Shown: in pieces, positions 1,578 through 53,692 of the stretch
Layout of the letters: each line of letters starts with the position of its first letter
Position numbering within the stretch: position 1 is the stretch's first letter
Sequence record: OR980947
Length of the DNA stretch: 64,000 nt
From: Shigella phage Tf
Reading direction: 5' to 3' (one strand)
Made by a program: the position numbers and the translations under genes
Notes under the pieces: model-generated
The model's input: only the letters and a program-made list of their open reading frames with translations
Databases searched by the model: none
Told to the model about the DNA's origin: nothing

Positions 1578-1606
1578 TTGACAATGCCCCTTGACATTGG
1601 TAATGT
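1578..1606 (+). promoter_or_regulatory. sigma70-like promoter (TTGACA-17-TAATGT)
   Basis: aaaagtgTTGACAatgccccttgacattggTAATGT; consensus -35 with second TTGACA inside spacer. Confidence 0.5.
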
Positions 1607-1698
1607 TGTTCGAGGGGGTTTATCTTAAAGGGATTCACTTAAAAGATTCTTTATAGATAAGCTTAAAAAATTGCTTGCAATCAGATATCAAAACAAGT

Positions 1699-1766
1699 AA
1701 ATTACTAATCAACGGGAGGTCATTACCTCCCCACTAAATAAAAGCCCTTAAACTAGGAGATTCAAA
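1699..1766 (+). repeat. early-gene upstream module copy d
   Basis: aatcaacgggaggtcattacctccccactaaataaaagcccttaaactaggagattcaaa; hairpin arms changed in a compensatory way. Confidence 0.65.
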
Positions 1767-2699: not shown

Positions 2700-3400
2700 A
2701 TCAAATCCTATACAATCCTTTTCCTTTCCTTTCCAGAATCTATCCCACTGATTCGATAGAATCTATCTCGTACCTTAAAAGCAATAACTCTATAGCTTAC
2801 TCTATAGCCCCTTATCAAATCAACTTAAATAAAAGCCAATAACCCCAGAAAGGGGATGGCCCATTAATTGGTATTGTTACCAATCCCTAAAACGCTCTAT
2901 AAAGCTCTATAACAGCCTTATCAACCTAACTTAAGGGATTGCATTACCTCACCCTTAAAAGCCCTTTATAAAGCTTCTGAGAGCCTTAAAAGAATCTTAT
3001 AAGGGTGTAAGCTTATAGGCTGATTAGTATCTTGTGAATGGTTAAACAATCCCTTGATAGTCACTAAAAAGTATGTTATAGGGGCTTAAAAGTTGCTTAA
3101 AAGTAGCTTAAAAGTTACTTCAAAGTTACGTAAATGCTAGCCCCCTTAACATTTTCTTAACAATTTCTTAACAAACCCTACATAGTTATGCTTGTTAGGA
3201 ACTTGTCAGCACCTTGTTAAATCTTTGTTAAAACCATGTAAAAACCTTGTAAGAACCTTCGACATAGCCTTAAAAGCTCCTGTAAAGCCCTATAAAGAGC
3301 TATCCATACAGTTGAGGGGTAAATACTAGGGAGAGCCTTAAAAGAGCTTACAAGGGGCTATAGAGAGCTTTTAAGAGGTATGTTTAAGAAGTCACTAAGA
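2700..3400. repeat. array of CTTAAAAG / CTATAAAG / CTTATAAG-type short repeats in ORF-free region
   Basis: many copies, e.g. ttgcttaaaagtagcttaaaagttacttcaaag (11-bp phasing), gccttaaaagctcctgtaaagccctataaagagc. Confidence 0.7.
2865..2888. promoter_or_regulatory. palindrome-containing site taattggtattgttaccaatccct (copy 1), operator-like
   Basis: inverted repeat ttggta..taccaa; exact 24-nt duplicate at 3516-3539. Confidence 0.45.
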
Positions 3401-4260: not shown

Positions 4261-4344
4261 GATATTTTATTCACATATGATGGTGACCCAGAGGTTGGGA
4301 CAACCGATAAAATTTTATAAAAATATAAATTTCGTAAATTTTAC

Positions 4345-4374
4345 TCAATAAAAAGCCCCCGATTAAGGAGGCTC
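4345..4374 (-). terminator. rho-independent terminator (minus strand)
   Basis: minus-strand agcctccttaatcgggggct followed by ttttt. Confidence 0.5.
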
Positions 4375-4384
4375 TTAAGATATT

Positions 4385-5062
4385 TTAAATCAGTGTTTCC
4401 AGAACTGTTTTTAGGGATGACTTGGTTGTCTGATAAAAATGAGTAAATCCATTATTGTTATCAAATACCTGCATCATGATATCATCTCCCTTGATTGGGT
4501 AAACTCGGATATCATAGTGAAAACCATTAAAGACACAAGAACCACTACAGAATGCTCTAAAGTCACTTGCTGAGATATACTCTTCATGACCTGTGATTTT
4601 TATACAAACACCTTTACTCGGCCTCTTAGGGTTGATATCTTCCATCACAGACATACTTTGTCCACCAAGAGATACCATAGTGACCACTTTACGATTCTGC
4701 TGTTTAACATACATCTCAAGTTTCTTCAAAGTATCTTCATAGAACGGATAAGACTTCTTGACAAAGATACCATCAAGTGGTTCTTTACAATCTTCCATAC
4801 GTTCATTATAAAGCTTGCTAGTAATACTATTAAGAGAGAGCTTCTCATCATCTGTCAAATATGTGTTGATATCATCCAGACTAAGTACCAGATACTTTCT
4901 TTCAAGTTCAAACTTTTTCATATCTATTAAGTCCTGAAAACATTTCTTAGTAATTGCTTCCCATTCTTCGGAGTTCTTCTTCTTCCTCCTCTTCAGATGG
5001 GGAACCATATCTTTCAAGTTCATCCAATTCATCCTGCGAAGGTGTCCCGTAAGATTCTTCAT
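4385..5062 (-). CDS. hypothetical protein (start uncertain)
   Basis: ORF-track ORF; terminator-like hairpin just downstream on minus strand. Confidence 0.4.
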   Translation of the reverse strand: MKNLTGHLRRMNWMNLKDMVPHLKRRKKKNSEEWEAITKKCFQDLIDMKKFELERKYLVLSLDDINTYLTDDEKLSLNSITSKLYNERMEDCKEPLDGIFVKKSYPFYEDTLKKLEMYVKQQNRKVVTMVSLGGQSMSVMEDINPKRPSKGVCIKITGHEEYISASDFRAFCSGSCVFNGFHYDIRVYPIKGDDIMMQVFDNNNGFTHFYQTTKSSLKTVLETLI

Positions 5063-5227
5063 CGTACAATTTCATAGTGTGGTATAGAGTAAGTTTTATT
5101 TCCAGATGACATGGCTAAATCTTCTTTAGTAGAGTTATCCAGTATTGCTTTACGAACAATTTCTTTAAGTTTCATTTTCACTACCTTGTTTGGTTAAGAG
5201 GGGCTATCAAGTAACCCCTTCAAGATT

Positions 5228-5455
5228 TTACTCAGAATCCTCAGATTTCTTTTCAGTCTTCTTCGTTTTCTTTTCAGCTTTCTTCTCAACTTCTGGTTTT
5301 GATTCTACAGTAGCTTCAATAGCAATGTCCAGAAGTTTTGAAAGGTCAGCTTTAAGAACCGTTACAGGTTGTTCATTGTAGTAGTTCTTGTCAAGGTGCT
5401 CTTTCAGTTCGTTCAGAGAGCTAAAGCCGAATGGCTGGATAGGTGTCTTAATCAT
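5228..5455 (-). CDS. hypothetical protein with lysine-rich C-terminus (75 aa)
   Basis: ORF-track ORF. Confidence 0.4.
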   Translation of the reverse strand: MIKTPIQPFGFSSLNELKEHLDKNYYNEQPVTVLKADLSKLLDIAIEATVESKPEVEKKAEKKTKKTEKKSEDSE

Positions 5456-5531
5456 TACTTAGTCTCTCCATAGGCATCTTTTAAGATTGCCTTGTTAATC
5501 ATTTCAGAGATTGCAAAACGAACACATACAG

Positions 5532-6065
5532 CTATAATTGTAGGTTGCATTCTTTACTTACCTCTTCAAGTTTAACCTCAGAGTCCTTGAGTCGTTTCTT
5601 ATGAACTCTGAATCTCATTAGTGAGATGATGATACCAGCTAAAGGAACAGTATACAAGTACCAGATATCATGTACCTTTGCAGTAATCTGCGTAATGGTT
5701 AAGTCTTGAGCTATGGAACTGATTGCTGATACTGCCAGTAATGTTGCTAGGAAAAATGCCAGTACCATAACAATGCTTAGGCAGCCTCTGGCATGGTGTT
5801 CATGCTTAATACACTTGTTCTTTTCGTCAACAACCCTGTTGTAGTCATTTGTAAAGTCTCTGTAGAAGGCTTTCAAGTATTCTTGACTGTAGCCTTCAAA
5901 GCAACCTGTACCGTACCAATAATCACCACCAAAGTGTGCTATGATACCAGTATCTCCGTTTGGTTTAGTTACTCTTAGAGAGACGTGATGACCAGTCTTC
6001 TGATAATCTATCTTATATCTTTCTTCGTAAATCATTTTCCAACCCCTCTCAATCGTTTGTTCCAC
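5532..6065 (-). CDS. hypothetical membrane protein
   Basis: ORF; long hydrophobic segment (LSIVMVLAFFLATLLAVSAISSIA) and second hydrophobic stretch. Confidence 0.45.
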   Translation of the reverse strand: MEQTIERGWKMIYEERYKIDYQKTGHHVSLRVTKPNGDTGIIAHFGGDYWYGTGCFEGYSQEYLKAFYRDFTNDYNRVVDEKNKCIKHEHHARGCLSIVMVLAFFLATLLAVSAISSIAQDLTITQITAKVHDIWYLYTVPLAGIIISLMRFRVHKKRLKDSEVKLEEVSKECNLQL

Positions 6066-6250
6066 TCAAGGTCAACAAGTCTTTGCAGGACTTTCCCTCT
6101 AGGTGTTACACCTTTTAAATCTGCATCGTAACAATGGTAAAAGTCACCTTCAGCATGTTTACCATAGCATTTTCTGATATTCTGGCTTCTGCGATACTGT
6201 TCTAACAAGGACAGTTTGTAGTAATCTTCAACTGTAGTTAGTTTTTTCAT
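6032..6250 (-). CDS. hypothetical protein (72 aa)
   Basis: ORF-track ORF overlapping neighbours by a few codons. Confidence 0.35.
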   Translation of the reverse strand: MKKLTTVEDYYKLSLLEQYRRSQNIRKCYGKHAEGDFYHCYDADLKGVTPRGKVLQRLVDLEWNKRLRGVGK

Positions 6251-6792
6251 TCTTTCACCATAGCGTTTCTGAACTGACGTTGAGTCTCTCTTGTAATTTC
6301 GTTTGGAGTAAAGCCAGCTTTTAACATATGTCTGAAAAGATGCTCTAAGTGATTCTCTTCAATAATATAAGTAGTCTTTGTAACTGATGTTTTAAGTTCA
6401 TCTAAGTTGCTATGTAGCTCCTTACACTTACTGGTAAGTTCTGTATCAACTCTCTTAAATACTGGCATCAGATGTGTATGACCACCTTTAGCAGCATCCA
6501 TGAAAAATTTAAAAGATTCTTCAGAGTCCTTTAAAGCAATCCCTATAAAGTTCTTGTAAACACCTGTGAAAGCTAAAGACTCAATCTCAGCAGTTGAGTA
6601 TACAGTCCCTGCGCACAGTCTTGCAGAGGTACTAAATGTGTGGTTTGGTGTTGTGTCAAAGTCTAAGTTCTTCAGTGGTCGAAAATAAACTGTACCATTG
6701 TGTGATATGTGTGTTACAACAGCCTCAACACTCTTCGAAGGGTTCTGTTTCACATACAAAATAATTTTATCGTGCTCTTTCACTTTAGCCAT
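6247..6792 (-). CDS. hypothetical protein (181 aa)
   Basis: ORF-track ORF, tightly packed with neighbours. Confidence 0.45.
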   Translation of the reverse strand: MAKVKEHDKIILYVKQNPSKSVEAVVTHISHNGTVYFRPLKNLDFDTTPNHTFSTSARLCAGTVYSTAEIESLAFTGVYKNFIGIALKDSEESFKFFMDAAKGGHTHLMPVFKRVDTELTSKCKELHSNLDELKTSVTKTTYIIEENHLEHLFRHMLKAGFTPNEITRETQRQFRNAMVKE

Positions 6793-6864
6793 ATCTACTC
6801 TCCAGAAACTAAAAAGGGAACTACCTCTCGATAGCTCCCATCATAGTCAATATTGTATACTCGG

Positions 6865-7446
6865 TCAAGAGTATTTTTTAGGCAGTAATGCACTGCGCTT
6901 GTTACTCTCTTCACTCAATAGTGCGATAAATTCATCACCTTTACCCTTCCACGGGCTGAATGTCGGAATGTGCTCTCTGATAGCATCAATCACTGTTTTA
7001 AGGGCGTTGTTCTTTAACCACCAATCAGATACCGCTGAAGCTACAATGTAATAAGCACCGTCATCTGTGAAGATTGGCTCAGAGATACATGGTGAAATCA
7101 TAGTGGTAATGATAGAACCATTATTCATGTAGTATGTTCTTTTTTCAACCTTATCAAGAAGTTTATGAAGGTCTGCAAAGAGACTTACCACATCTTTATG
7201 GTCAATATCTTTTTCAAGATTTGCTCTGTATTTCAGTAGTGCAGCATCAACCTCTTTATCATTGAATTTGAAGTATTGGACTTCTTCATTCACGCATACA
7301 CTGATGTTGTTAGTGTTTATCGTCAATTTGCACAGTTTGACTGGAGAATTGATGTTGGTCTGAAAAAGTGCTACACAGCCTTCTACATTTCCAAAATGTT
7401 TGACTAATGTAACTTCTGGTTGGATATGCTCATGTTCTTCTGACAT
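6865..7446 (-). CDS. hypothetical protein (193 aa)
   Basis: ORF-track ORF. Confidence 0.45.
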   Translation of the reverse strand: MSEEHEHIQPEVTLVKHFGNVEGCVALFQTNINSPVKLCKLTINTNNISVCVNEEVQYFKFNDKEVDAALLKYRANLEKDIDHKDVVSLFADLHKLLDKVEKRTYYMNNGSIITTMISPCISEPIFTDDGAYYIVASAVSDWWLKNNALKTVIDAIREHIPTFSPWKGKGDEFIALLSEESNKRSALLPKKYS

Positions 7447-7790
7447 TACAGTTTCCTCATTAAATACTTTTTAAGTTGTGTGTTAGGTTTCTCAAAAACT
7501 TCTATAGAAGATATCTTAACAGATTCACCACGCATACCTGTATGTTTGAATATATAGTACTCTAACATACCTATATACTTTGCTGGTAAGTCATACTTGA
7601 CATACACCGTTACAGAATCTTCAAATTCAACAACCTTTGTACCATCTTTGTAGTTAAACTCTTTAGGATGGTCGTAGTTGTCGATATCGTACATTAAAAA
7701 GAGTCTTTTCCGTTGCATATCAAGCTTATTTGTTAAAGACTCTTTTATATCTGAGAAGTTTTTGTACACTGTGACATGGAGCTTACTCAT
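7446..7790 (-). CDS. hypothetical protein (114 aa)
   Basis: ORF-track ORF; stop/start overlap with neighbours. Confidence 0.45.
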   Translation of the reverse strand: MSKLHVTVYKNFSDIKESLTNKLDMQRKRLFLMYDIDNYDHPKEFNYKDGTKVVEFEDSVTVYVKYDLPAKYIGMLEYYIFKHTGMRGESVKISSIEVFEKPNTQLKKYLMRKL

Positions 7791-8076
7791 CGTTAAACTC
7801 TCTGACGAAGAAATAGTTGACTTTATTATTACCTACCATAAGGTCAAAGCAGGTATTCTCAAAAGGCTTGTTGTAGGCATCGTATGAAACATATGGGTCA
7901 GCCACTTGCTTAGTGCTTAACTTCTTACTTGATGGATTTAAGAGGCCACCATACAGATTCTTGATAGCCTCTTCTACAACAGACCAGATGATTTCGTCAG
8001 TAATTTCTTCGTACAGGTCAAGTTCACGCTCTAGTGAGAAGTCACAAATAGGGAAAATAACCTGTACTTTACTCAT
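7783..8076 (-). CDS. hypothetical protein (97 aa)
   Basis: ORF-track ORF. Confidence 0.4.
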   Translation of the reverse strand: MSKVQVIFPICDFSLERELDLYEEITDEIIWSVVEEAIKNLYGGLLNPSSKKLSTKQVADPYVSYDAYNKPFENTCFDLMVGNNKVNYFFVREFNDE

Positions 8077-8477
8077 TAGCGAATAACCTGTGTTACCTGA
8101 ATAGCTTCAGTTACGGACAAGTCACCCACTTTCTCTTCTTTGATAAAAGTGAAGGTGAGTTCAACAGGTTCTTCTTCTTCTTCTTCTTGCTCAACTGGAA
8201 CACCATTAAGCTCATCAAAGATTGATTGGGTTGTCCAGTCTTCACCACCATCTGGGTAGTGGATTGCATACAGAGGTAACTCTAAATTATACCAAGCAAA
8301 AACAGGACAACCATCTACATCATCTCGACATCTGTGTAGATATGAGTTTGCACCTTCAAAATGTAAATACAGATTACCACTCTTCTCATAGATAATCGCA
8401 TCTCGCAGGTCTAATTCTTCATCTCCACTATAACGGCTAACATCGACTTTAACTTTAATCTGATTGATATTATTCAT
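8076..8477 (-). CDS. hypothetical protein with poly-Glu stretch (133 aa)
   Basis: ORF-track ORF; EEEEEEE run. Confidence 0.45.
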   Translation of the reverse strand: MNNINQIKVKVDVSRYSGDEELDLRDAIIYEKSGNLYLHFEGANSYLHRCRDDVDGCPVFAWYNLELPLYAIHYPDGGEDWTTQSIFDELNGVPVEQEEEEEEPVELTFTFIKEEKVGDLSVTEAIQVTQVIR

Positions 8478-8868
8478 AAAAACCTCTCTCTGCTAGTTTT
8501 ATCTTTTCTTTGAGAGTTTCACAACGCTCTATGTGGTATTTTGCTTCACACTCATGGGTTGCTAACTCTCTTTCAAGTAGAGTTTTATAATAACCTGACA
8601 ATTGCTCTGCTGTCAATGGGTGTTCAGAAATAATATCTAATCCACTCTCTCCAAGAGGGTTGAACCGACCGTACTCATCTACTTTGTAAATCTCGAACCT
8701 GAAAAACCCATTCTTAGCACGGGTAATAGGTGATAGTTCAGATAACTCTACAGTGAACTTTGTAGAAACCTCATCACCGCTTACTACAATCTGGCTGCCA
8801 ATAATCCTCACCATTGAGCCATCACGAGTGTACTTAAAAGTTCCAAAGTCACTAGCCCAAAGCTTCAT
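8470..8868 (-). CDS. hypothetical protein (132 aa)
   Basis: ORF-track ORF. Confidence 0.45.
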   Translation of the reverse strand: MKLWASDFGTFKYTRDGSMVRIIGSQIVVSGDEVSTKFTVELSELSPITRAKNGFFRFEIYKVDEYGRFNPLGESGLDIISEHPLTAEQLSGYYKTLLERELATHECEAKYHIERCETLKEKIKLAERGFYE

Positions 8869-8880
8869 AGTTTTCTCCTT

Positions 8881-15697: not shown

Positions 15698-15855
15698 CCT
15701 AATAAGATTTAAAGCCAAGCTTCATTCGGATGTTGCTTTGGTATACCGCGTGTATTGTTGTACACATTGATAAAACACCTAGTAGGTGTCACGGAGAAGA
15801 GATAATATCAAGCTCTCCAAAGGTTCTAGTCACCGGATTAAACAAGACTATGCAA

Positions 15856-15876
15856 AGACCTAAATAGGTCTTTTTA
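15856..15876 (+). terminator. terminator-like hairpin inside tRNA cluster
   Basis: agacctaaataggtct + ttttt. Confidence 0.45.
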
Positions 15877-15954
15877 GAGGGCTTCTAAGGTTATTACAGC
15901 TTGTTGTGGAACCTTGTTGCTTAGGTTCTTAGAAGTTCTCTAAAAAGATTTAAT

Positions 15955-16029
15955 GGGAGATTGATGGTAATTGGTAAACCTATCTCGCTTAGAACGAGAT
16001 GTTTGAGGGTTCGAATCCCTTGTCTCCTA
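15955..16029 (+). tRNA. tRNA with Leu-type anticodon TAG but short variable region
   Basis: acceptor gggagat/gtctcct, anticodon stem tctcg/cgaga loop ctTAGaa, T-loop GGTTCGAATCC, A73, CCA encoded; only 5 nt between anticodon and T arms. Confidence 0.5.
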
Positions 16030-16039
16030 CCAAATTAAT

Positions 16040-16112
16040 GCAGGTGTAGCAAAATGGTTATGCGGCTGACTCTTAATCAGTAAGACGATGGGTTCAATTC
16101 CCTCCACCTGTA
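16040..16112 (+). tRNA. tRNA-Lys (anticodon CTT)
   Basis: paralogue of the TTT tRNA at 14806; anticodon stem ctga/tcag loop ctCTTaa; T-loop GGTTCAATTCC; CCA encoded. Confidence 0.6.
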
Positions 16113-16121
16113 CCAGACATT

Positions 16122-16194
16122 GGGGATGTAGTTTACATGGTTAAAACATAAGTTTTGCAAACTTAAGTACAGGGTTCAATTCCCTGCTTCTCCA
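16122..16194 (+). tRNA. tRNA-Ala (anticodon TGC)
   Basis: D-stem gttt/aaac, anticodon stem taagt/actta loop ttTGCaa, T-stem cagg/cctg, CCA encoded. Confidence 0.7.
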
Positions 16195-16203
16195 CCAATT
16201 AGT

Positions 16204-16275
16204 GCATCCATAGTTTAAACGGGAAAATTACAGTCTTCCAAACTGAGGTTGAGGGTTCGATTCCCTCTGGATGCT
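16204..16275 (+). tRNA. tRNA-Gly (anticodon TCC)
   Basis: perfect acceptor gcatcca/tggatgc, anticodon loop ctTCCaa, T-loop GGTTCGATTCC, CCA encoded. Confidence 0.75.
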
Positions 16276-16284
16276 CCAAACAAT

Positions 16285-16358
16285 GCTGCTTTCGTATAAT
16301 TGGCTATTACACATCCCTTGTAAGGATGGAAATGCAGGTTCGAGTCCTGTGAGCAGCA
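16285..16358 (+). tRNA. tRNA-Thr (anticodon TGT)
   Basis: acceptor gctgctt/gagcagc, anticodon stem catcc/ggatg loop ctTGTaa, T-loop GGTTCGAGTCC, CCA encoded. Confidence 0.75.
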
Positions 16359-16456
16359 CCAATTCAGAGGTCAAGTGAAAGACCGCTGGTGTCAACTGAA
16401 GACCGTAACAAATTCCACGGAGTTGAGTTAGCGGCACAACTTCAGACCTCTTTCAC

Positions 16457-16528
16457 ACTCGCTTAGTTTATATGGTAAAACATCACCCTTACAAGATGAA
16501 GAAAAAGGTTCAAGTCCTTTAGTGAGTA
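16457..16528 (+). tRNA. tRNA-Val (anticodon TAC)
   Basis: acceptor actcgct/agtgagt, anticodon loop ctTACaa, T-loop GGTTCAAGTCC, CCA encoded. Confidence 0.7.
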
Positions 16529-16532
16529 CCAT

Positions 16533-16607
16533 GTTCCAGTATCCCAATTGGCAGAGGATGCAAGCTCAAACCTTGTATTAGTGACGGTTCGAATCCGTCT
16601 TGGAACA
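16533..16607 (+). tRNA. tRNA with Leu-type anticodon CAA but short variable region
   Basis: acceptor gttccag/ttggaac, Leu-like D-loop aattggcaga, anticodon stem gcaag/cttgt loop ctCAAac, T-loop GGTTCGAATCC, A73, CCA encoded. Confidence 0.55.
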
Positions 16608-16629
16608 CCAATTTTAAGAGGCTATTTAG

Positions 16630-17187
16630 ATGAGATACTTAAAGTATGCTTCATGGATTTTCTTAGCTTTGTTAGAGCCATTCGCAGCAATCTTAGCAGT
16701 TATCTTAGCACCTTTTGTAGTTCCATTCTATAGTGAGAAGAAAGGACATCTACCTTTCGGATTCAGATGGATGGAGACATATGACAACCCAATTGATGGT
16801 GATGAAGGTCACGTTAAAAGATGGGCTAAGATTAGAAAGATTGGTAATCTTGGTGTCTATTTGCAGAGAGTTGGATGGCTCTGGAGAAACAAAGCTTATA
16901 ACTTCTCTTACCATGTGTTAGGAAGAGACGTAAAAGATGTTACTAAGTGGAAAGGTAATATCAACGTGAGTTCTGACCCTGAAGATAATCAGACAGGTTA
17001 TCTCCTAATGTGGAACAGTAATGCTTGGGGATTATTCGCTTTTGTCCCATCAATTAAAATCTTTGGTAAACAATTCTACTGGAGAATTTATGTTGGATGG
17101 AAACTAAAAAGTGTTGTCCCAGAAGAAAGAGCATTCTCAAGGGAAAGAGTTATGTTGGCATTCTTTATTCATCCACTGAGAAAGTAA
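16630..17187 (+). CDS. hypothetical membrane protein encoded inside the tRNA cluster
   Basis: ORF 185 aa; N-terminal hydrophobic segment (IFLALLEPFAAILAVILAPFVVPF); Trp/Tyr-rich. Confidence 0.45.
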   Translation: MRYLKYASWIFLALLEPFAAILAVILAPFVVPFYSEKKGHLPFGFRWMETYDNPIDGDEGHVKRWAKIRKIGNLGVYLQRVGWLWRNKAYNFSYHVLGRDVKDVTKWKGNINVSSDPEDNQTGYLLMWNSNAWGLFAFVPSIKIFGKQFYWRIYVGWKLKSVVPEERAFSRERVMLAFFIHPLRK

Positions 17188-17195
17188 AGATTTAA

Positions 17196-17268
17196 AGGGG
17201 ATTAGTTTACAAGGTTAAAACCTCGGTCTTTGAAATCGAAGAAGTTGGTTCAATTCCAACATCCCCCG
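17196..17268 (+). tRNA. tRNA-Gln (anticodon TTG)
   Basis: anticodon stem tcggt/atcga loop ctTTGaa, T-stem gttgg/ccaac, CCA encoded. Confidence 0.7.
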
Positions 17269-17273
17269 CCAAT

Positions 17274-17349
17274 GCTCCATTACTCCAATTGGCAGAGAGG
17301 CCAGACTTAAAATCTGTGTTATGTATCGGTTCGAATCCGATATGGAGTA
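17274..17349 (+). tRNA. tRNA with Leu-type anticodon TAA but short variable region
   Basis: paralogue of 16533-16607 (shared aattggcaga D-loop); anticodon stem caga/tctg loop ctTAAaa; T-loop GGTTCGAATCC; A73; CCA encoded. Confidence 0.5.
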
Positions 17350-17357
17350 CCAAATTT

Positions 17358-17430
17358 AGCGGTATAGCATAACTGGCAATGCAGCAGTCTCTGAAGCTGT
17401 CTTATTAAGGTTCAAATCCTTATGCCGCTG
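17358..17430 (+). tRNA. tRNA-Gln (anticodon CTG)
   Basis: D-stem gcat/atgc, anticodon stem gcagt/gctgt loop ctCTGaa, T-loop GGTTCAAATCC, CCA encoded. Confidence 0.7.
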
Positions 17431-17434
17431 CCAC

Positions 17435-17464
17435 TTCTAAGGGTTCTTACGAGAGTCTTTAAAT
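17435..17464 (+). promoter_or_regulatory. conserved motif cttctaagGGTTCTTACGAGagTCTTTAAAtg (copy 3)
   Basis: just upstream of tRNA-His. Confidence 0.35.
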
Positions 17465-17537
17465 GTGGCCTTATCATAAATGGTAATGACCCATGCTGTG
17501 AACATGGTCTATACGGGTTCAAATCCCGTAGGTCACC
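17465..17537 (+). tRNA. tRNA-His (anticodon GTG)
   Basis: D-stem tcat/atga, anticodon stem ccatg/catgg loop ctGTGaa, T-loop GGTTCAAATCC, C73, CCA encoded. Confidence 0.75.
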
Positions 17538-17545
17538 CCAATTTA

Positions 17546-17620
17546 TAGTCCAAGTAGCTTATATGGTTAAAGCGCGTGTCTGAAAAACATGAGAAGAGGG
17601 TTCAAATCCCACTGGACTAC
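17546..17620 (+). tRNA. tRNA-Phe (anticodon GAA)
   Basis: perfect acceptor tagtcca/tggacta, anticodon stem cgtgt/acatg loop ctGAAaa, T-loop GGTTCAAATCC; D region slightly irregular. Confidence 0.6.
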
Positions 17621-17638
17621 CAATTTCAAAGGTGCTTA

Positions 17639-18373
17639 ATGAAAGAGATGACAGGACAAGGTAAGGAGATTTTTAATCTCTTAAAAACCGGTAAAGGGTT
17701 CTCTAACCCGCTTATTACTGGTGCAGCAGTTCTCGGTGGAACCGTAGCTGCTTCTACATCACTTGTAAGCTCTATTAGTTCTGTAACAGACCCTACAATG
17801 AAGGAGAAACTTGTTGCTGCTGGACTTACAACAGCCCTTCTAAACAGCTTTACAACAAGCCTGACAAGTACTACAGCAACTACTAAGACCCTAACAGACT
17901 ATGGTCAAAAGTCTATTGATGAGTTTTCATCACGTATGCAGGTAGCAAAGGGATACTCCAATGTTATGGGTGCAGCAGGAGAACAAGTTGGTTGTACACC
18001 ATTCAGTGGTATCATGGGTGTTGCTACAGAGTATGGTCAAAAAGCTATTGACATGATGAACAGTGCACTAGATAGTGTTAACGATGTATTAAGTGACTTA
18101 CAAGACGCTATTGACAAGGGTCTTGATACTGTTTCTGATTTAGCTAACCAAGCTGTCAGTAAGATTAATGAAGGTATCTCGAAGATTACAGCTTATGCAG
18201 ATGAAGTTGTGCAGATGATTGAAGAAGAAGCTGCCCTTATTGCAGAGTACCTTAAAACGAATATCAATGGGTTCTTAGCAGGTATCTTACCAGACTGGTT
18301 TGATGATGCTTGTAAAACTGGTGTAATTGACACTATTGCAACACCAGAAATGAAGAACGCATTACAGAAATAA
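17639..18373 (+). CDS. hypothetical protein, Ser/Thr/Ala-rich (start trimmed to avoid tRNA-Phe)
   Basis: ORF-track ORF 17576-18373 overlaps tRNA-Phe; in-frame ATG at 17639 preceded by aaaggtg. Confidence 0.5.
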   Translation: MKEMTGQGKEIFNLLKTGKGFSNPLITGAAVLGGTVAASTSLVSSISSVTDPTMKEKLVAAGLTTALLNSFTTSLTSTTATTKTLTDYGQKSIDEFSSRMQVAKGYSNVMGAAGEQVGCTPFSGIMGVATEYGQKAIDMMNSALDSVNDVLSDLQDAIDKGLDTVSDLANQAVSKINEGISKITAYADEVVQMIEEEAALIAEYLKTNINGFLAGILPDWFDDACKTGVIDTIATPEMKNALQK

Positions 18374-18375
18374 AT

Positions 18376-18465
18376 GGAAGATTAACCCTAAAAGGTAAGG
18401 GAGCAGTTTGCTAAACTGCCAGTAGCTGAGAAATCGGTGTACCAGTTCAAGTCTGGTATCTTCCT
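18376..18465 (+). tRNA. tRNA-Ser (anticodon GCT), long variable arm
   Basis: 90 nt; acceptor ggaagat/atcttcc, anticodon stem gcagt/actgc loop ttGCTaa, long variable arm, T-arm accag-TTCAAGT-ctggt, CCA encoded. Confidence 0.7.
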
Positions 18466-18472
18466 CCAATTT

Positions 18473-18545
18473 GAATCCGTGACAGAAACGGCTATGTGCC
18501 TGTCTGCAAAACAGGTTTATAAGGGTTCGAGTCCCTTCGGATTCT
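18473..18545 (+). tRNA. tRNA-Cys (anticodon GCA)
   Basis: acceptor gaatccg/cggattc, anticodon stem cctgt/acagg loop ctGCAaa, T-arm aaggg-TTCGAGT-ccctt, CCA encoded. Confidence 0.7.
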
Positions 18546-18593
18546 CCAAGTTATTTTACTCTCTCTCAATTAAAATAATAATAATGCCCTGCT

Positions 18594-48677: not shown

Positions 48678-49229
48678 TCAAATTAGTTTTGCAAACTCTC
48701 CGTGGAGTTTAATAGCAGCTTCACAGTAAGCTTTATGGGCTTCTTCAGGCGTGTCAAACATACCAAGATGATAGTTTTTACCTTGTAAACGTATCATTGC
48801 TCGAAACCTTTTATTTATCTTCTGTACACCTTTTGGCAACCCAGATAGGGACTTTCTTGACCGATTGCAAGAGTTTTGTGAAGCTGTACAAACCCTTAAA
48901 TTCAAGTACCTATTGTCCCAACCATCCCCATTCTTATGGTCAACCTGTAAGGTTTTATCAGGCAGATATCCATCAATATACAAGATAACTAAACGATTTG
49001 CTTGGTAACTCCTTCCATCAATCAGCAACTGAACTGACTTGTGTCCATCAGTATTTGTTCTGTAGTTTCCAGCCCTCTTACCTCCAAATCTAGAGTTAAA
49101 ATTTGCATTACCTTCTCTAAACTTCCAAGTAAAGACCCCTGTTTCGGGGTCGTAGTCCAATAGCTCCTTAAGACGAATTTCTGTAATCATTTCAACACCA
49201 TCAATGTACCTCATACCAGCTCTTACCAA
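48678..49229 (-). CDS. HNH homing endonuclease with AP2 DNA-binding domain (free-standing)
   Basis: HNH core QVDHKNGDGWDNRYLNLRVCTASQNSCN and AP2-like LPKGVQKINKRFRAMIRLQGKNYHLGMFDTPEEAHKAY; overlaps 3' end of DNA polymerase exon 2. Confidence 0.8.
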   Translation of the reverse strand: MVRAGMRYIDGVEMITEIRLKELLDYDPETGVFTWKFREGNANFNSRFGGKRAGNYRTNTDGHKSVQLLIDGRSYQANRLVILYIDGYLPDKTLQVDHKNGDGWDNRYLNLRVCTASQNSCNRSRKSLSGLPKGVQKINKRFRAMIRLQGKNYHLGMFDTPEEAHKAYCEAAIKLHGEFAKLI

Positions 49230-49757
49230 CCTTACCTGTGCCAGTTACAAGCGTCTCACTCTTCAAACCTAAATTCTTAGATGCCTGACCATACATCCAG
49301 TCAGTTATGGCTTTAACTTCTTGAGTCATACTTTCTGGGCATTCCCAACTGTTCTCATCGTGGTATGCCAGCAAAAGTCTAGCACCAATTGCTGGTTTCC
49401 GTCCATTTAATTTTGTCAACCCTTCTTCACATGCTCTTCTACAAGCAAGGTTAATTGCCTCGTTCTGAATCTGACTTTCCGAACCCATGAGCAAATAATT
49501 CAACAACTTATGTGGAGATTTACACCACAACCAAGCTCCAGCAACCTTTACAAAACCCCCTTTAGAGATTGCAGCAGTCTTACCAAACACCTCTTCAAGA
49601 GCCTTTTTAGTTGCTTTGTAGTCAGCTTCCAAGTCATCTAGCAGCTTCTTAATCTTTGGCAAACGCACAAAGTAAGTCTGTTTAGTTAATGCACCTTCCT
49701 GAGTAGTGGCTGCCTTAATAGTTTTAGCAAACTTTTCATCACCTGCACCGAACAATA
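49201..49757 (-). CDS. DNA polymerase (family A), exon 2: C-terminal part from motif B second half through motif C
   Basis: starts ..LFGAGDEK (T7 pol LYGAGDEK), contains motif C LLAYHDE and ends ...WYEVH like T7 DNA polymerase. Confidence 0.8.
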
Positions 49758-50068
49758 CATCTGGTCAATACACTCGCAAGGTGTACCAGTTCTCTTATGA
49801 ACTTCTCCGCATTTCTACGGAGTGTCGGACTATATCACGTAGTAGTAATACTACCGTTGCACTTGGGAATGGTCATTAGCTTACCACCCTACTCTACTCA
49901 GTTCATACATTAAGTATGCTTTTCGATAGTCTCTGAACGTTTCTCTGTTAGGAATCTCTATAGTTATGTTATTTGCTTTAGGAGTCCTAACAGAGACTTC
50001 GCTGCTGATTACCATATCTTTACAGACTTAGGCTTCCAGCAATTCACAACGTTTTACATGCGCCACTG
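49758..50068 (-). ncRNA. group I self-splicing intron interrupting the DNA polymerase gene
   Basis: on the minus strand: exon 1 ends in U pairing with G of internal guide gcgcat (P1), terminal G before exon 2, and P/Q/R/S-like core elements aattgctggaagcc, aatcagcagc, gttcagagacta, gatatagtcc in canonical order; no long ORF inside. Confidence 0.75.
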
Positions 50069-52244
50069 ACGCATAGATACCATTCTTAGCCTTCTTGCGG
50101 CCTTTACTAATCTCATGAAGAAGATTCTCATCCTGAGTAGCTCGACAAGTCAAGATGTCCTGCTCATCATTCAAGCTAAAGTAAATACTGTTCAGTGTAT
50201 GTGCATCAGTCCCTGAATAGACAACGTACAGGTCATTCTCAGAGTCATAGCGCAGGTACTTATCAATCTCTGGGTTGAGGTACTCATCAAAATGTTTACA
50301 GTAATAACGTCCATCTTCTTGACGAATAAACTCAATCTCTTCTTTACCTTGCGTTACCGCTTTGGTGAACTCTTTATCACCCATAAAGTTACAAAGTAGA
50401 ACTAACTGGGCTGAGTTCATATCAACAGAGACTACGTTGGTTCCCTCTTCACAAATCCACACCTCCCTCATAGGTGCTCCATAGACAGCAGCACCAGACG
50501 GTACGTTTACAATACCATATTGTGTCATTCGTCCAGTTGAAGTACCAAACACCATTGCACCAGCACTAAGGCGACCATCAGGACGAATCTGGTTCAACCA
50601 ACCTTTTTCACCATCCTTTGAGTTCTCAATAGTTCTGCGTCGGTGCATCAAAGTATAGTACTTAGCAATCTTCTGTCCAAGCTCACCTTCAATCGTATCA
50701 TAAGAAGACTCAGTAAGTTTTGGTGAAGTACGGATTAAGCAAGGTTCAAGCAAATCTGTGTACTTCTTCACAGACCAGTTATGCTCAATGTACTGTACAC
50801 CTTCATGTTCAACATAGCTCAAACCACACCGCTCAACCATTTCCTGCCACTTAGGATGTTTTGTAATCATCTTTTTATTGTCTTTGAAACGACAAACTTT
50901 GACAGGGCGACCGTCTGAGTCTTTCTTGTAGTTCCAGTCATCTGGAATCCAACCAACTGATTTCAAGTAGTCTTTAACAACTGCTACCTGAGTCATACGA
51001 GAAACTTCAAAATCAATTGGTGTATATGGTGCATCAATCAAACCTGTGTAGCGACTTGACTCAAGTTCAAAGTGGTTAACAACGTGACTGTTATAGTACT
51101 TCACAGTTTTAACTGTTTTTACTGGCTTCCAGTCTTTGCATTTCTTACCAATCTTTGCATTCAACTCATTGCAAATTGCACGAGCATCCTTCATTGCTAC
51201 AAAGCCTTCCTTGTACTCTTCACCAGTTACAGAGTTGGTTGGTGTATAGCAATTTCTCTTTTCAATGTTAAAAATCTTTGTAGTTGGCTTACCAAATGGC
51301 TTGATTTCATATGTCTGCATCTCACCGTTACGTACCTGCTGACGATACTTTGTCTTAGGGTACTTGGTAATTCTTTTCAGTCCATCTGCATGACCAAATG
51401 TTTCAACATACTCATTCCAAGCTTTTGCAAACTCTTCTCCAGTGACTTTACCTTTGGTCTTAATAGTTGGAGGAAGATGTGGTTCAACTTCTGAAGCAAG
51501 CTCATTAGTCAACTTGTCAAGTTCCTTTACATGGAACTCCATAAGTTCTTTATCAGCTTTCCAACCATTGATAGCCTGTTGACTCATCCAGAAAGATGTT
51601 TCTTTAGCTCGCATGTAGGTTTCATAAGTGTCTATGCCACACTTCTTAAGCTTGAGATACTCATTATCAAGTGCCCGTTTAGTTTTGGCGTTAATACGGA
51701 TATCTTCTACAACACGAGTGAAGATTTCTGCATTCCACACACCCCAATGCTCAATCTCTGGTTTACGAACACCAACACGAGCACCCCATGCAGCCAAACC
51801 ATGAGCACCTTTATAACCCTTTGGAGTTGGTCTATCCATCCACTGAACACGAGACTGGATAAGAGAGTCCTGAAAGAAATTACTCCACGGTTTACACTTT
51901 GGGTTATCAAAGTTCCATAAATCAGGTGCAATGTGATTGAAAACCCACCAGTCATAACCGAGACCGTTATGGATGCAAAGACGTTTTGCCTTTAACGCAA
52001 ATTCAACGCCTTCACGCAAACCACCTTTAATGTACTTGGTATACTTGTGACCGAGGATAGGCTCATCTGTAAAGACCCATACAGGCGGCTCTTCATCGTC
52101 AGATTTATAGTCTGCGAAAGCCATTACGTGCACTTTAGTGAACTCAAGGAGTAAACCATCAGTTTCTGTATCACCAACCAAATGTAAGTTTTTAAAATCT
52201 ACGTTTTCCATTTCTACTCCCTCTAAATCATTAACCTCATACAT
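50069..52244 (-). CDS. DNA polymerase (family A), exon 1: 3'-5' exonuclease and polymerase domains up to first half of motif B
   Basis: Exo I motif VGDTETDGL; motif A-like VSVDMNSAQL; ORF-track ORF ends RKKAKNGIYAS... with stop 12 codons into the intron. Confidence 0.85.
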
Positions 52245-52270
52245 TACTGCAAAAAATTATAAAAAGCAAG

Positions 52271-52299
52271 TTGACAATGCACTTGACAAGGTGTTAATC
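52271..52299 (+). promoter_or_regulatory. sigma70-like promoter for rightward replication operon
   Basis: aaaaagcaagTTGACAatgcacttgacaaggtgTTAATC. Confidence 0.45.
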
Positions 52300-52467
52300 T
52301 TTGCGAAGTGGGTTTTTACTTAAAAGGTTACTTAACAGTTTAACTATACAGATACTTTAAAACTCTTAAAAGATTATTTAAAAGCTTTTAAAAAGCTTTA
52401 AAGTATAACGTATAGAATACGTTAAGATAAAAGATTAAAACTTAATAGTTACTTAAAAGAGGCTTAC

Positions 52468-52890
52468 ATGCAGAAAATGTTTGTTCACCCAGACATAGCT
52501 GACTTTGTTAGAGCTTTGCAGAAGTTGGAAGAACTTGACATTGCTGCTCAACGGGAATATGCTCACCATCACAGGAGAATGGTTGATATACAACATGAAA
52601 TAGAGTTGTCTGAAAACTATGAAGATGACTTAAAATGCTCTGTATTTGAGCATATGAAAGATGTTGCTACAGCTAGACGTAAAGCCAAAGACACAGTTGC
52701 TTTACTAGATTCTCTTAAAAAGAGGTTGCAAAGTGGTACAGACCTGTGTAATCTAGCGTCACTGATTAACGATGTTGAAACTTCTTGGGATAGACATTAC
52801 TATCCACGTTCTGAAAAGACACTTGACTTTTCTTCATCCGAAAACTTAAAATGTTCTAGAAAGAAACTTAACCAACTGAGAGAGAAATAA
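52468..52890 (+). CDS. hypothetical protein (140 aa)
   Basis: first ORF of rightward replication operon. Confidence 0.45.
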   Translation: MQKMFVHPDIADFVRALQKLEELDIAAQREYAHHHRRMVDIQHEIELSENYEDDLKCSVFEHMKDVATARRKAKDTVALLDSLKKRLQSGTDLCNLASLINDVETSWDRHYYPRSEKTLDFSSSENLKCSRKKLNQLREK

Positions 52891-52891: not shown

Positions 52892-53692
52892 ATGAATATC
52901 GATGTAGAAAAGATGCTTGAAGAAAAAGGTGTTGATGAAGCATTCTTAATCAATGCTGTAGAAAGCATGGCTATGATTCTTCGTGGTAACAACTACACAG
53001 AGCAGTTTATGCCTGCAAGCTATAACTTGCCTGAAGACAAGTCTGATAACGGTGCTTTTGCAGAACAGGTCAACATGATGCTGTGTGACAAAAAACTTGC
53101 TTTAGCATCTATCGTTGTAGGTGTTGATGCTCTTGCAGAGTTCATTTTTTATGAGATGCAGAAAAATGACTATATTGCCATGACCTCTGAAGAAAAAGAC
53201 TCGCTACTACTCGCAGGTAATGATGAGCTAATTGACCTGTTAATTTCATCAACGAGTGCTGTTATGGCTGTTCTTGAGAAGCGCATGGAAGAGAAACTTT
53301 CACGATATGAAAAACTTGATTGGGGTGTAGAAGAACTAAACCCACGAATCAAGGAGATTATCCAGCAAACTAAAGAGTCTTTGGAAGAAGCTGTTGAAAA
53401 TGACTCTGTAGCTGACATCGAACCACTTCAGGTGAAAGTTGCACTGATGATTCCAGCTATCTCTACGATGATGAATATCGTTGCACTAATCCAACTGTCA
53501 CAGATGATGGATGTGAGTATTGAGTTCATTGAAGAGATGACTGGTGGTGTCAGTATGCAAGCAATCAATGATGTTTTGGTGAACATTGGTGCTTCAATCA
53601 TTGAAGAGAAACTACGCATTAACTTCGGTGATGATTTTGTGAAGCAAATCTCAGCTATGGCTGAAAAAGAGTATGCTGACCAACTGCACTAA
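52892..53692 (+). CDS. hypothetical acidic protein (266 aa)
   Basis: ORF-track ORF with adjacent start to previous gene. Confidence 0.45.
   Translation: MNIDVEKMLEEKGVDEAFLINAVESMAMILRGNNYTEQFMPASYNLPEDKSDNGAFAEQVNMMLCDKKLALASIVVGVDALAEFIFYEMQKNDYIAMTSEEKDSLLLAGNDELIDLLISSTSAVMAVLEKRMEEKLSRYEKLDWGVEELNPRIKEIIQQTKESLEEAVENDSVADIEPLQVKVALMIPAISTMMNIVALIQLSQMMDVSIEFIEEMTGGVSMQAINDVLVNIGASIIEEKLRINFGDDFVKQISAMAEKEYADQLH

What the first reader, a model, noticed from the sequence alone, without database searches (positions are those of the whole stretch)
52250..52467. AT-rich palindromic switch region between the DNA polymerase and the rightward replication operon
The 220-bp spacer between the divergently transcribed DNA polymerase gene and the first rightward replication-operon gene contains a TTGACA promoter plus nested palindromes (aaagcttttaaaaagcttt; aacgtatagaatacgtt) and CTTAAAAG motifs. 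Divergent promoters with palindromes in an A+T-rich segment flanked by replication genes make this a candidate origin of replication or operator.
Basis: inference. Interest (0 to 1): 0.45.

Follow-up and report, generated by a model that had tools for sequence, protein, structure and literature searches.

The report
Early promoter and leader, Felix O1-like phage
The A+T-rich spacer between the DNA polymerase gene and the replication operon of this Felix O1-like phage holds a strongly conserved host-type early promoter and a 160-base leader full of short repeated boxes; it is a control region rather than a demonstrated replication origin, and the palindromes that drew attention are its least reliable feature.

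Summary
The window is a Felixounavirus genome. The finding is the 256-bp spacer (52212-52467) between the DNA polymerase gene and the homologue of Felix O1 gene 97. The Felix O1 genome paper already assumed early divergent promoters here.

Their weight differs:
- The 9+9 palindrome is perfect only in this phage and arises in about 5% of shuffles.
- The repeated CTTAAAAG-type boxes are the real signal: 6 on the + strand against 0.18 expected.
- The leader is the least stable 150 bp in the 64-kb window.

Across five genus-level lineages the promoter block is 89-98% identical and the leader 81-82%. Flanking third codon positions are 54-67% identical. This indicates purifying selection.

I read the region as a rightward sigma-70 early promoter (A-tract, TTGACA, 18-nt spacer, TGnTAATCT) followed by a regulatory leader. 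The leader has a box at about +13, further boxes, and a 7-8 bp hairpin with two compensatory changes. I found no convincing leftward promoter.

Two sister modules exist, at 11518 and 1578, and similar boxes flank the terminal repeat.

An origin function of the T7 or T4 transcription-primed type is possible. It is untested, and the sister modules weaken it. The finding is ordinary to mildly interesting.

The parts
52209..52223 (-). Start codon (ATG at 52211-52209) and ribosome-binding site (GAGGGAG, 52223-52217) of the DNA polymerase gene
   Evidence: Read from the sequence. Invariant across genera. The start is annotated at this position in Mordin, Sf17 and EcSzw-2.
52224..52250 (.). Variable part of the spacer, apparently under little constraint
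   Evidence: Together with the start-codon and ribosome-binding-site bases and most of the A-tract (52212-52262), it is 57-84% identical between genera. This is like third codon positions. Alignment.
52251..52270 (+). A-rich tract resembling an UP element. Its proximal part, AAAAAGCAAG (52261-52270), is invariant.
   Evidence: The same A-tract plus GT(T/G)TTGACA context occurs at about eight other strong promoter-like sites in the window. The link to UP elements rests on established knowledge of sigma-70 promoters.
52271..52276 (+). -35 hexamer TTGACA of the rightward early promoter
   Evidence: Position-weight scan score 11.4, among the top ~35 of all positions on both strands. Invariant in all lineages, including distant Yersinia and Erwinia relatives. 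Annotated as a promoter in ASO1A and AYO145A.
52283..52291 (+). Second TTGACAAGG box inside the promoter spacer, 12 bp after the first. CTTGACAAG is a 4+1+4 palindrome. Candidate regulator site; function unknown.
   Evidence: Invariant in Felixounavirus, Suspvirus, Mooglevirus and two further lineages. Absent from Yersinia P778 and Erwinia Fifi318. The 22-nt module occurs twice in the window against 0.01 expected. A looser third copy is at 1578.
52292..52300 (+). Extended -10 element TGtTAATCT: TG at 52292-93, hexamer at 52295-52300, 18-nt spacer
   Evidence: Between genera only the 'n' base and hexamer position 3 vary (TGtTAGTCT, TGgTAGTCT). T1, A2 and T6 are kept.
52303..52316 (+). Predicted transcription start (about 52306-52307) and conserved initial transcribed sequence GCGAAGTGGGTTTT
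   Evidence: The start position is inferred from the usual 7-nt distance after the -10. Conservation. GAAG(T) is kept in Yersinia P778 and in the sister module at 11518.
52319..52459 (+). Leader array of seven CTDWWHAG boxes at 52319, 52331, 52344, 52365, 52396, 52441 and 52452, plus degenerate copies at 52355 and 52377. Local spacing is mostly 10-13 bp.
   Evidence: 6 strict boxes against 0.18 expected, 0 of 2000 shuffles. Window-wide 166 against 65 for the symmetric pattern. The first box lies 44-49 nt after the start of the -35 in every lineage examined and in the sister module at 11518. Substitutions fall on box positions 4 and 6; CTT..AG is kept.
52381..52399 (.). Palindrome AAAGCTTTT-A-AAAAGCTTT. 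It is perfect only in this phage; the consensus elsewhere is ATAGCTTTTAAAAAGCTTT.
   Evidence: Its RNA fold is no better than shuffles (z -1.0).
52406..52424 (+). Hairpin TAACGTAT-AGA-ATACGTTA: 7-8 bp stem, -5.8 kcal/mol as RNA
   Evidence: Fold z -3.7. The 7-bp core is paired in all 7 distinct lineage sequences. Two pairs show compensatory double changes (A-T to T-A; C-G to T-A). 7 of 500 shuffles reach the score and the slid controls collapse. A hairpin in the corresponding leader position is at 11600-11619.
52452..52470 (+). Last box fused to the Shine-Dalgarno sequence (CTTAAAAGAGG), followed by the ATG of the 140-aa first gene of the rightward operon
   Evidence: The same arrangement (box or box-like plus AAGAGG) precedes the genes at 11668 and 39466.
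11492..11667 (+). Sister control region (Felix O1 gene 40/41 spacer). It has TTGACAAAGGACTTGACAAGGT at 11518-39, a -10 TAGGCT, boxes at 11567, 11581, 11629, 11638 and 11650, and a hairpin at 11600-19. A leftward promoter, TTGACT-N17-TACCAT, starts at 11492 on the minus strand.
   Evidence: The Felix O1 paper lists P41 at this place.
1578..1766 (+). Third, looser member of the module: TTGACAATGCCCCTTGACATTGG-TAATGT, with boxes at 1638 and 1649

Best explanation
The region is the early transcription control region of the rightward replication operon (140-aa protein, 266-aa protein, dNMP kinase, primase/helicase).

**Promoter.** Host RNA polymerase with sigma-70 binds a strong promoter. It consists of an A-rich upstream tract (52251-70), a consensus -35 TTGACA (52271-76), an 18-nt spacer and an extended -10 TGtTAATCT (52292-52300). 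Transcription starts near 52307.

**Leader.** The transcript begins with a leader of about 160 nt and 21% G+C. The leader is conserved as a unit. It carries a CTTAAAAG-type box at about +13, a second box 12 nt later, more boxes at roughly one-helical-turn spacing, a short hairpin (52406-24), and two boxes that run into the Shine-Dalgarno sequence.

**Likely mechanism.** I infer that the boxes, and the second TTGACAAGG element inside the promoter spacer, are binding sites for a protein not yet identified, from the phage or the host. That protein would tune or shut off this promoter class during the early-to-late transition. The hairpin and A/U-rich leader would act on the mRNA, affecting stability or ribosome loading.

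**What is shown and what is inferred.**
- Shown: the sequence elements, their conservation, their non-randomness, and their recurrence at two other promoters.
- Inferred: the start site, protein binding, and the regulatory outcome.
For: 1. The phage is a Felixounavirus and the spacer is the Felix O1 gene 96/97 spacer. Gene 96 and other replication genes are transcribed within 5 min, the phage has no RNA polymerase of its own, and its temporal control is unknown (PMC3185647).
2. Promoter score is 11.4, in the top ~35 of the window. Between genera only non-critical promoter positions vary. Distant relatives keep TTGACA-N17-(TG)TAnnnT at the same place.
3. Selection: the promoter block is 89-98% identical and the leader 81-82%. 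Third codon positions of the two flanking genes are 54-67% identical. Codon positions 1+2 of gene 97 are 75-84% identical.
4. Boxes: 6 against 0.18 expected. The first box sits at a fixed distance from the -35 in 7 of the 8 promoter copies examined, including the sister at 11518; the looser 1578 copy has it 11-12 nt further downstream. Substitutions spare CTT..AG.
5. The same design occurs at 11518 and 1578, and nowhere else in the genome of a relative.
6. The hairpin is kept by compensatory changes, and a hairpin occupies the same position in the 11518 leader.
7. The spacer has no ORF, no Rfam family, no DnaA box, no GATC and no IHF site.
Against: - No transcription start, RNA-seq or footprint data exist for this phage group in the library I searched, so promoter use is inferred.
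- The -10 hexamer TAATCT is only moderate.
- The binding protein is unknown. The first gene product (140 aa) is a plain helical hairpin with no DNA-binding fold match.
- No leftward promoter for the early-expressed polymerase gene was found (best score 6.5). Part of the conservation may therefore serve an unrecognised leftward promoter.
- The extreme A+T-richness and helical phasing of the boxes would also suit an origin.
Confidence: 0.62

Rival explanations
1. **Origin of DNA replication of the transcription-primed type.** A transcript from the promoter at 52271 would invade or stay annealed in the easily melted leader. It would prime the T7-like polymerase, and the primase/helicase would load on the displaced strand. 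This is how the T7 primary origin (tandem promoters plus an A+T-rich segment) and T4 oriF/oriG (promoter plus unwinding element) work.
For: - The replisome is T7-like: a family A polymerase and a Toprim plus DnaB-type primase/helicase directly flank the spacer.
- A strong promoter is followed by the least stable 150 bp of the window.
- Direct repeats are phased at about one helical turn.
- The whole leader is under selection.
- The comparison with T7 and T4 origins rests on my own knowledge of those systems.
Against: - Nothing maps initiation here.
- The same promoter-and-leader design occurs at 11518, in front of non-replication genes, and at 1578.
- GC skew flips at every change of transcription direction (about 11.5, 43 and 52.3 kb), so it carries no separate replication signal.
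- There are no DnaA boxes and no recognisable initiator gene.
- The terminal-repeat region is an equally repeat-rich and A+T-rich candidate.
Confidence: 0.2
2. **Palindromic operator bound by a dimeric repressor**. The two palindromes would be the recognition sites that switch the divergent promoters.
For: - Both palindromes exist.
- The conserved frame of the boxes, CT....AG, is itself dyad-symmetric.
- CTTGACAAG is a small palindrome.
Against: - The 9+9 palindrome is imperfect in every relative and occurs by chance in 4.7% of shuffles.
- The second palindrome changes sequence symmetrically between genera. That is expected for base pairing, not for a fixed protein recognition sequence.
- Neither palindrome is present in Yersinia P778 or Erwinia Fifi318, although those phages keep the promoter and the boxes.
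- Both palindromes lie 75-120 nt downstream of the start site, away from the promoter.
Confidence: 0.08
3. **Face-to-face promoter switch.** The polymerase promoter would lie inside the leader on the minus strand, for example at the invariant TATAGT (52348 to 52343) or TATACT (52406 to 52401). The two transcripts would then overlap and interfere with each other.
For: - The spacer next to the polymerase gene is poorly conserved while the leader is conserved.
- ACTATACAG (52343-51) is invariant.
- ASO1A annotates a weak minus-strand promoter in this stretch.
- The polymerase gene is early in Felix O1.
Against: - The best minus-strand scores are only 6.2-6.5 and have poor -35 elements.
- The candidate -10 TATACT is not kept in other genera.
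- No data on transcript ends exist.
Confidence: 0.1

Closest known systems
Early sigma-70 promoters of virulent coliphages (T4 early, T5 early, T7 A1-A3), which have an A-rich upstream element and strong -35 and extended -10 elements
   Same: It is read by the host polymerase immediately after infection. It has an A-tract upstream of a consensus TTGACA and a TGn-type -10. It is one of a family of similar promoters in the same genome.
   Different: - A second TTGACAAGG box is conserved inside the spacer.
- A 160-nt conserved leader with repeated boxes follows the promoter.
- Activity has not been measured.
T7 primary origin (promoters phi1.1A/1.1B plus an A+T-rich segment) and T4 oriF/oriG (middle promoter plus a DNA unwinding element)
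   Same: A promoter is followed by an exceptionally A+T-rich non-coding stretch, next to genes for a T7-like polymerase and primase/helicase.
   Different: - The promoter is of the host type; this phage has no polymerase of its own and no MotA.
- The design is repeated at two other loci.
- There is no initiation mapping.
- The resemblance comes from my knowledge of T7 and T4 and was not tested.
Iteron-type origins (lambda ori, P4 ori/crr with 8-bp TGTTCACC repeats)
   Same: There are several short direct repeats at roughly helical spacing beside an A+T-rich stretch. Further repeat clusters lie elsewhere in the genome.
   Different: - The boxes are only 8 bp and degenerate (CTDWWHAG).
- No initiator protein was identified.
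- The boxes also fill the regions flanking the terminal repeat.
Felix O1 gene 96/97 and 40/41 spacers as described by Whichard et al. 2010 (PMC3185647)
   Same: It is the same locus. The authors assumed divergent early promoters between genes 96 and 97 and listed P41 in the 40/41 spacer.
   Different: They reported no promoter-like sequence in the 96/97 spacer. They did not describe the shared double-TTGACA module, the boxes or the hairpin.

Membership tests
Sigma-70 (host) promoter | -35 and -10 hexamers with a 16-18 nt spacer | tested here: met
   TTGACA-N18-TAATCT with TG at -15/-14. Score 11.4, top ~35 in the window.
Sigma-70 (host) promoter | Critical positions are conserved while non-critical positions are free to vary | tested here: met
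   Across genera only the 'n' base of TGn and hexamer position 3 vary. The -35 is invariant.
Sigma-70 (host) promoter | A mapped transcription start or measured activity | not testable with these tools
   I found no transcript-end data for this phage group. The only data are RT-PCR timing for Felix O1 genes.
Divergent (back-to-back) promoter pair | A second promoter on the opposite strand serving the polymerase gene | tested here: not met
   The best minus-strand scores in 52212-52560 are 6.2-6.5, near the 99.9th percentile of background. By contrast the 11.5-kb spacer has a good leftward promoter (11492, score 11.9).
Transcription-primed origin (T7 primary origin, T4 oriF/oriG type) | A promoter directly followed by an easily unwound A+T-rich element | tested here: met
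   52312-52461 is the least stable 150 bp of the window (z 4.5). It lies immediately downstream of the promoter.
Transcription-primed origin (T7 primary origin, T4 oriF/oriG type) | Replication initiates here (copy-number peak, nascent strands) | not testable with these tools
   No data are available. GC skew is uninformative because it follows transcription direction.
Iteron or DnaA-type origin | DnaA boxes or long (17-22 bp) iterons | tested here: not met
   No TTATNCACA with one mismatch or fewer in 52100-52600. The repeats are 8-11 bp boxes only.
Iteron or DnaA-type origin | An adjacent gene for an origin-binding initiator | tested here: not met
   - The 140-aa and 266-aa products have no Pfam domain.
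- Their PHROG families are of unknown function or labelled 'minor tail'.
- The 140-aa model is a helical hairpin with no significant fold match.
Palindromic repressor operator | A dyad-symmetric site whose sequence is conserved among relatives that share the regulator | tested here: not met
   One palindrome is perfect only in this phage. The other co-varies like a stem. Both are absent from distant relatives that keep the promoter and boxes.
Structured RNA family (riboswitch, leader, sRNA) | A match to a curated covariance model, or a well-supported overall fold | tested here: not met
   - No relevant Rfam match at E of 1 or less.
- The whole-leader fold has z -1.97.
- The consensus fold has little covariation apart from the one hairpin.

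The most novel reading that the evidence does not exclude
The CTDWWHAG boxes would be the recognition sites of one unidentified phage DNA-binding protein. They cluster in only three kinds of place in the genome: the leader of the replication operon, the leader at 11.5 kb, and both flanks of the direct terminal repeat. That protein would couple early transcription, initiation of replication at the promoter-plus-unwinding-element modules, and processing of the genome ends. On this reading the spacer at 52.3 kb would be the main origin of a T7-like replisome primed by host RNA polymerase.
Probability: 0.12. Interest if true: 0.6.

Novelty: new member of a known kind. Interest (0 to 1): 0.3.

Why it matters
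Felix O1-like phages are widely used for Salmonella typing, biocontrol and therapy. Their temporal gene control and their replication origin are nevertheless unknown, and the genome paper says so explicitly.

This analysis provides a defined three-member promoter class with a shared second -35-like box, a fixed box at about +13, and a genome-wide box motif shared with the terminal-repeat flanks. These are concrete, cheap targets for reporter fusions, pull-downs and marker-frequency sequencing.

If the region turns out to be only a strong early promoter with an A/U-rich leader, it is ordinary. It could then still serve as a compact strong promoter part.

Tried and rejected
- **Rfam scan** of 51900-52800 at E of 1 or less: nothing relevant.
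- **Whole-leader RNA fold:** weak (z -1.97). In the consensus fold, the 5' hairpin seen in Suspvirus and Mooglevirus is not kept in Felixounavirus. I rejected a structured RNA element apart from the one short hairpin.
- **Known binding sites and ORFs:** no DnaA boxes, GATC, IHF consensus or small ORFs.
- **GC skew as an origin signal:** the sign flips with every transcription block. The block values do not fit a single-origin model with an origin at either 52.3 or 11.5 kb; this is my own arithmetic. I rejected it as uninformative.
- **Leftward promoter search:** a weight-matrix scan found nothing above 6.5. The perfect TATAAT on the minus strand (52261 to 52256) has spacers of 10 or 22 nt to the TTGTCA boxes and is not conserved.
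- **IMG/VR scan for TTGACAANNNNCTTGACAAGG**: 96 hits. Apart from two per Ounavirinae genome, the hits are chance or coding. One group reads GTT GAC AAA GCA CTT GAC AAG GTG, which is VDKALDKV inside an ORF. Another group has the motif in the opposite orientation to its neighbouring genes. I rejected the idea of a module shared across phage families.
- **Comparison of the first genes downstream of the two sister modules:** no similarity.
- **The 140-aa first gene product:**
  - It has only 9 homologue clusters, all in this subfamily.
  - A profile search of solved structures found nothing.
  - The model is a helical hairpin, pLDDT 71.
  - No fold match at E of 0.001 or less.
  - So there is no support for an initiator or a repressor.
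- **Literature:** I found no transcriptome, origin mapping or intergenic fitness data for this phage group.

Full report
**Identity of the locus**

The 2-kb stretch around the finding is 96-98% identical to many Felixounavirus genomes (Felix O1-like myoviruses of Salmonella and E. coli). In the annotated relative ASO1A, the spacer lies between the DNA polymerase gene (minus strand) and a plus-strand operon. That operon encodes a hypothetical protein, a so-called minor tail protein, dNMP kinase and DNA primase/helicase. Two weak 'promoter' features are annotated in the spacer.

My own scans agree. The minus-strand ORF is a family A polymerase. The plus-strand ORFs include a DNMK kinase and a Toprim plus DnaB-type primase/helicase.

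This is the Felix O1 gene 96/97 spacer. [quoted passage not shown] It reported that it could find no promoter-like sequence there. It showed gene 96 to be transcribed within 5 min, and it stated that temporal control in this phage is unknown (PMC3185647).

**Check of the observation**

- The spacer is 256 bp rather than 220 bp. The polymerase start that has a ribosome-binding site is the ATG at 52211, and relatives annotate it there.
- The spacer has 26.6% G+C against 38.9% for the window.
- 52312-52461 is the least stable 150-bp stretch of the entire window by nearest-neighbour energy (z 4.5).

The palindromes are weaker than they look.
- In 2000 dinucleotide-preserving shuffles of 52250-52467, a perfect palindrome with arms of at least 9 appears 4.7% of the time.
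- The 9+9 palindrome AAAGCTTTT-A-AAAAGCTTT is perfect only in this phage. All 20 close relatives from IMG/VR, and the other genera, have AATAGCTTTT on the left.

The strong signal is the repeated box. CTT[AT]A[ACT]AG occurs 6 times on the plus strand of the region against 0.18 expected, and none of 2000 shuffles reaches 6.

**The promoter**

A weight-matrix scan of both strands of the window gives TTGACA(52271)-N18-TAATCT, preceded by TG at the extended -10 position. It scores 11.4, within the top ~35 of all positions.

Upstream lies an A-rich tract whose proximal part, AAAAAGCAAG, is invariant. The same A-tract plus GT(T/G)TTGACA context marks about eight other high-scoring promoter-like sites in the window.

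I compared Felixounavirus, Suspvirus, Mooglevirus and two further lineages whose gene-97 protein is only 62-67% identical.
- The -35 is invariant.
- The only changes in the -10 region fall on the 'n' of TGn and on hexamer position 3.
- T1, A2 and T6 are kept.

The distant relatives Yersinia phage P778 and Erwinia phage Fifi318 have TTGACA-N17-TGgTAATGT and TTGACA-N17-TACATT at the same place. This is the pattern expected of a working sigma-70 promoter. I place the start near 52306-52307 by the usual spacing; this position is inferred.

No comparable leftward promoter exists in the spacer. The best minus-strand scores are 6.2-6.5. The only perfect TATAAT on the minus strand is wrongly spaced and not conserved. 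'Divergent promoters' is therefore half confirmed.

**Selection**

I aligned the window with six relatives from other lineages.

| Segment | Identity |
|---|---|
| Third codon positions, polymerase | 58-67% |
| Third codon positions, gene 97 | 54-61% |
| Part of the spacer next to the polymerase gene (52212-52262) | 57-84% |
| Promoter block (52263-52315) | 89-98% |
| Leader (52316-52467) | 81-82% |
| Codon positions 1+2, gene 97 | 75-84% |

The promoter and the whole leader are under purifying selection. The polymerase-proximal part is not.

**The leader**

The symmetric form of the box, CTDWWHAG, occurs 166 times in the window against 65 expected. It occurs seven times in the 141 bp from 52319 to 52459.

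In every lineage the first box begins 44-49 nt after the start of the -35, that is at about +13. A second box usually follows 11-13 nt later. Substitutions between lineages fall on box positions 4 and 6 and spare CTT..AG.

A hairpin at 52406-52424 folds at -5.8 kcal/mol (z -3.7).
- Its 7-bp core is paired in all seven distinct lineage sequences.
- Two of its pairs show compensatory double changes.
- 7 of 500 shuffles reach the covariation score.
- Sliding the partner strand destroys pairing.

That behaviour fits base pairing in the mRNA or in single-stranded DNA, not a fixed protein recognition sequence.

Otherwise the leader is not a structured RNA. It has no Rfam match, an overall fold z of -1.97, and little covariation elsewhere. 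The spacer has no ORF, DnaA box, GATC or IHF site.

**Sister modules**

The 22-nt element TTGACAAnGnACTTGACAAGGT occurs exactly twice in the window against 0.01 expected. The second copy is at 11518, in the other divergent spacer. That spacer is Felix O1 gene 40/41, site of the published P41.

The two spacers align over the A-tract, both TTGACA boxes, the first ACTTAAAAGGTT box at the same 29-nt distance, and later boxes. The 11.5-kb leader also has an 8-bp hairpin in the corresponding position (-8.1 kcal/mol).

A looser third copy lies at 1578, with boxes at 1638 and 1649.

I scanned the ASO1A sequence that lies outside or overlaps the ends of the window (1-15000 and 72000-87613). It contains no further double-TTGACA promoter and no further box cluster apart from the start of the terminal-repeat region. 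A scan of IMG/VR found two exact copies per Ounavirinae genome. The other hits are chance or coding matches.

The second TTGACAAGG box is absent from the Yersinia and Erwinia relatives. It is therefore a clade-specific addition to an older design of promoter plus boxes.

**Interpretation**

The best-supported reading is a strong host-type early promoter driving the replication operon through a conserved regulatory leader. It belongs to a three-member promoter class.

The fixed box at +13, the phased boxes and the extra -35-like box are most simply sites for a regulator that has not been identified. This step is inferred.

The 140-aa first gene product has homologues only in this subfamily. It models as a helical hairpin (pLDDT 71) with no significant fold match. 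It gives no support for an initiator or a repressor.

**The origin hypothesis**

For it:
- The spacer sits between the genes of a T7-like replisome.
- A promoter followed by the most easily melted segment of the window is the design of the T7 primary origin and of T4 oriF/oriG. That comparison comes from my own knowledge and is not a test.

Against it:
- The design is repeated in front of unrelated genes.
- GC skew follows transcription direction at every block boundary.
- There are no DnaA boxes and no long iterons.
- No initiator gene is evident.
- The terminal-repeat region is an equally A+T-rich and far more repeat-rich candidate.

I put the origin reading at about 0.2. It needs marker-frequency or plasmid-amplification experiments.

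**Wider context of the boxes**

Outside the two leaders, the only dense box clusters are in the 1.76-kb non-coding region 2627-4384. GenBank records of relatives begin or end at window positions of about 3140/3160 and about 3741. This matches the published direct terminal repeats of 581 and 608 bp.

In that region, boxes of the CTTAAAAG orientation fill the left part and boxes of the opposite orientation (CTGTTAAG) fill the right part. I could not determine whether one protein reads the boxes at the ends and in the early leaders.

**Verdict**

- The locus was already flagged in the literature as the presumed early promoter region.
- As far as I could find, three things are new: the defined promoter, the three-member module, and the box motif shared with the genome ends.

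The finding is a new member of a known kind, of modest interest.

Noticed in passing
window 2627-4384: A 1.76-kb non-coding region that contains the direct terminal repeat. Relatives' GenBank records start or end at about 3140/3160 and about 3741, matching published 581- and 608-bp repeats. The region is packed with 8-bp CTDWWHAG boxes at about 10-11 bp spacing. CTTAAAAG-type boxes lie on the left (2774-3337) and the reverse type, CTGTTAAG, lies on the right (3280-4171). A perfect 24-nt repeat is at 2865-2888 and 3516-3539. From memory, this resembles the short-repeat arrays beside the T7 terminal repeat.
   Followed up: partly
window 49805-50080 (minus strand): A group I intron (Rfam RF00028, 62.9 bits, gathering score 50) interrupts the DNA polymerase gene. 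The gene is therefore read as two ORFs (50028-52211 and 49201-49752). An HNH endonuclease ORF follows at 48678-49226. ASO1A has an uninterrupted 906-aa polymerase.
   Followed up: partly
window 11440-11667: A second divergent control region (Felix O1 gene 40/41 spacer). It has the same double-TTGACA promoter, boxes and a leader hairpin (11600-11619). It also has a good leftward promoter, TTGACT-N17-TACCAT, starting at 11492 on the minus strand.
   Followed up: yes
window 1578-1766: A third, looser double-TTGACA promoter (TTGACAATGCCCCTTGACATTGG-TAATGT) with two boxes in its leader. It lies about 1 kb upstream of the terminal-repeat region.
   Followed up: partly
window 52535-52563: A promoter-like site, TTGACA-N17-TATGCT (score 12.9), lies inside the coding sequence of the 140-aa gene. 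Its -35 context (AACTTGACATTGC) resembles that of the main promoter (AAGTTGACAATGC). It is invariant among close relatives.
   Followed up: no
window 52892-53692: This 266-aa ORF is named 'minor tail protein' in GenBank records and in PHROG 4251. It is the second gene of the early replication operon and has no Pfam domain. The name looks like a propagated annotation with no evidence behind it.
   Followed up: no
window 13703-18548: 23 tRNA genes lie in clusters on the plus strand. Several strong promoter-like sites with A-tracts lie just upstream (13556, 13647, 15056).
   Followed up: no
L028 968-1444 (Erwinia phage Fifi318): In this Kolesnikvirus an HNH endonuclease gene is inserted between the polymerase gene and the conserved promoter. 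The polymerase-proximal, unconstrained part of the spacer therefore tolerates insertions.
   Followed up: no
L052, L061, L085 and related IMG/VR contigs: The 21-nt double-TTGACA pattern also hits unrelated A+T-rich viral contigs. There it is coding sequence (GTT GAC AAA GCA CTT GAC AAG GTG, which is VDKALDKV). This is a reminder that exact hits to this pattern outside the subfamily are not homologous promoters.
   Followed up: yes
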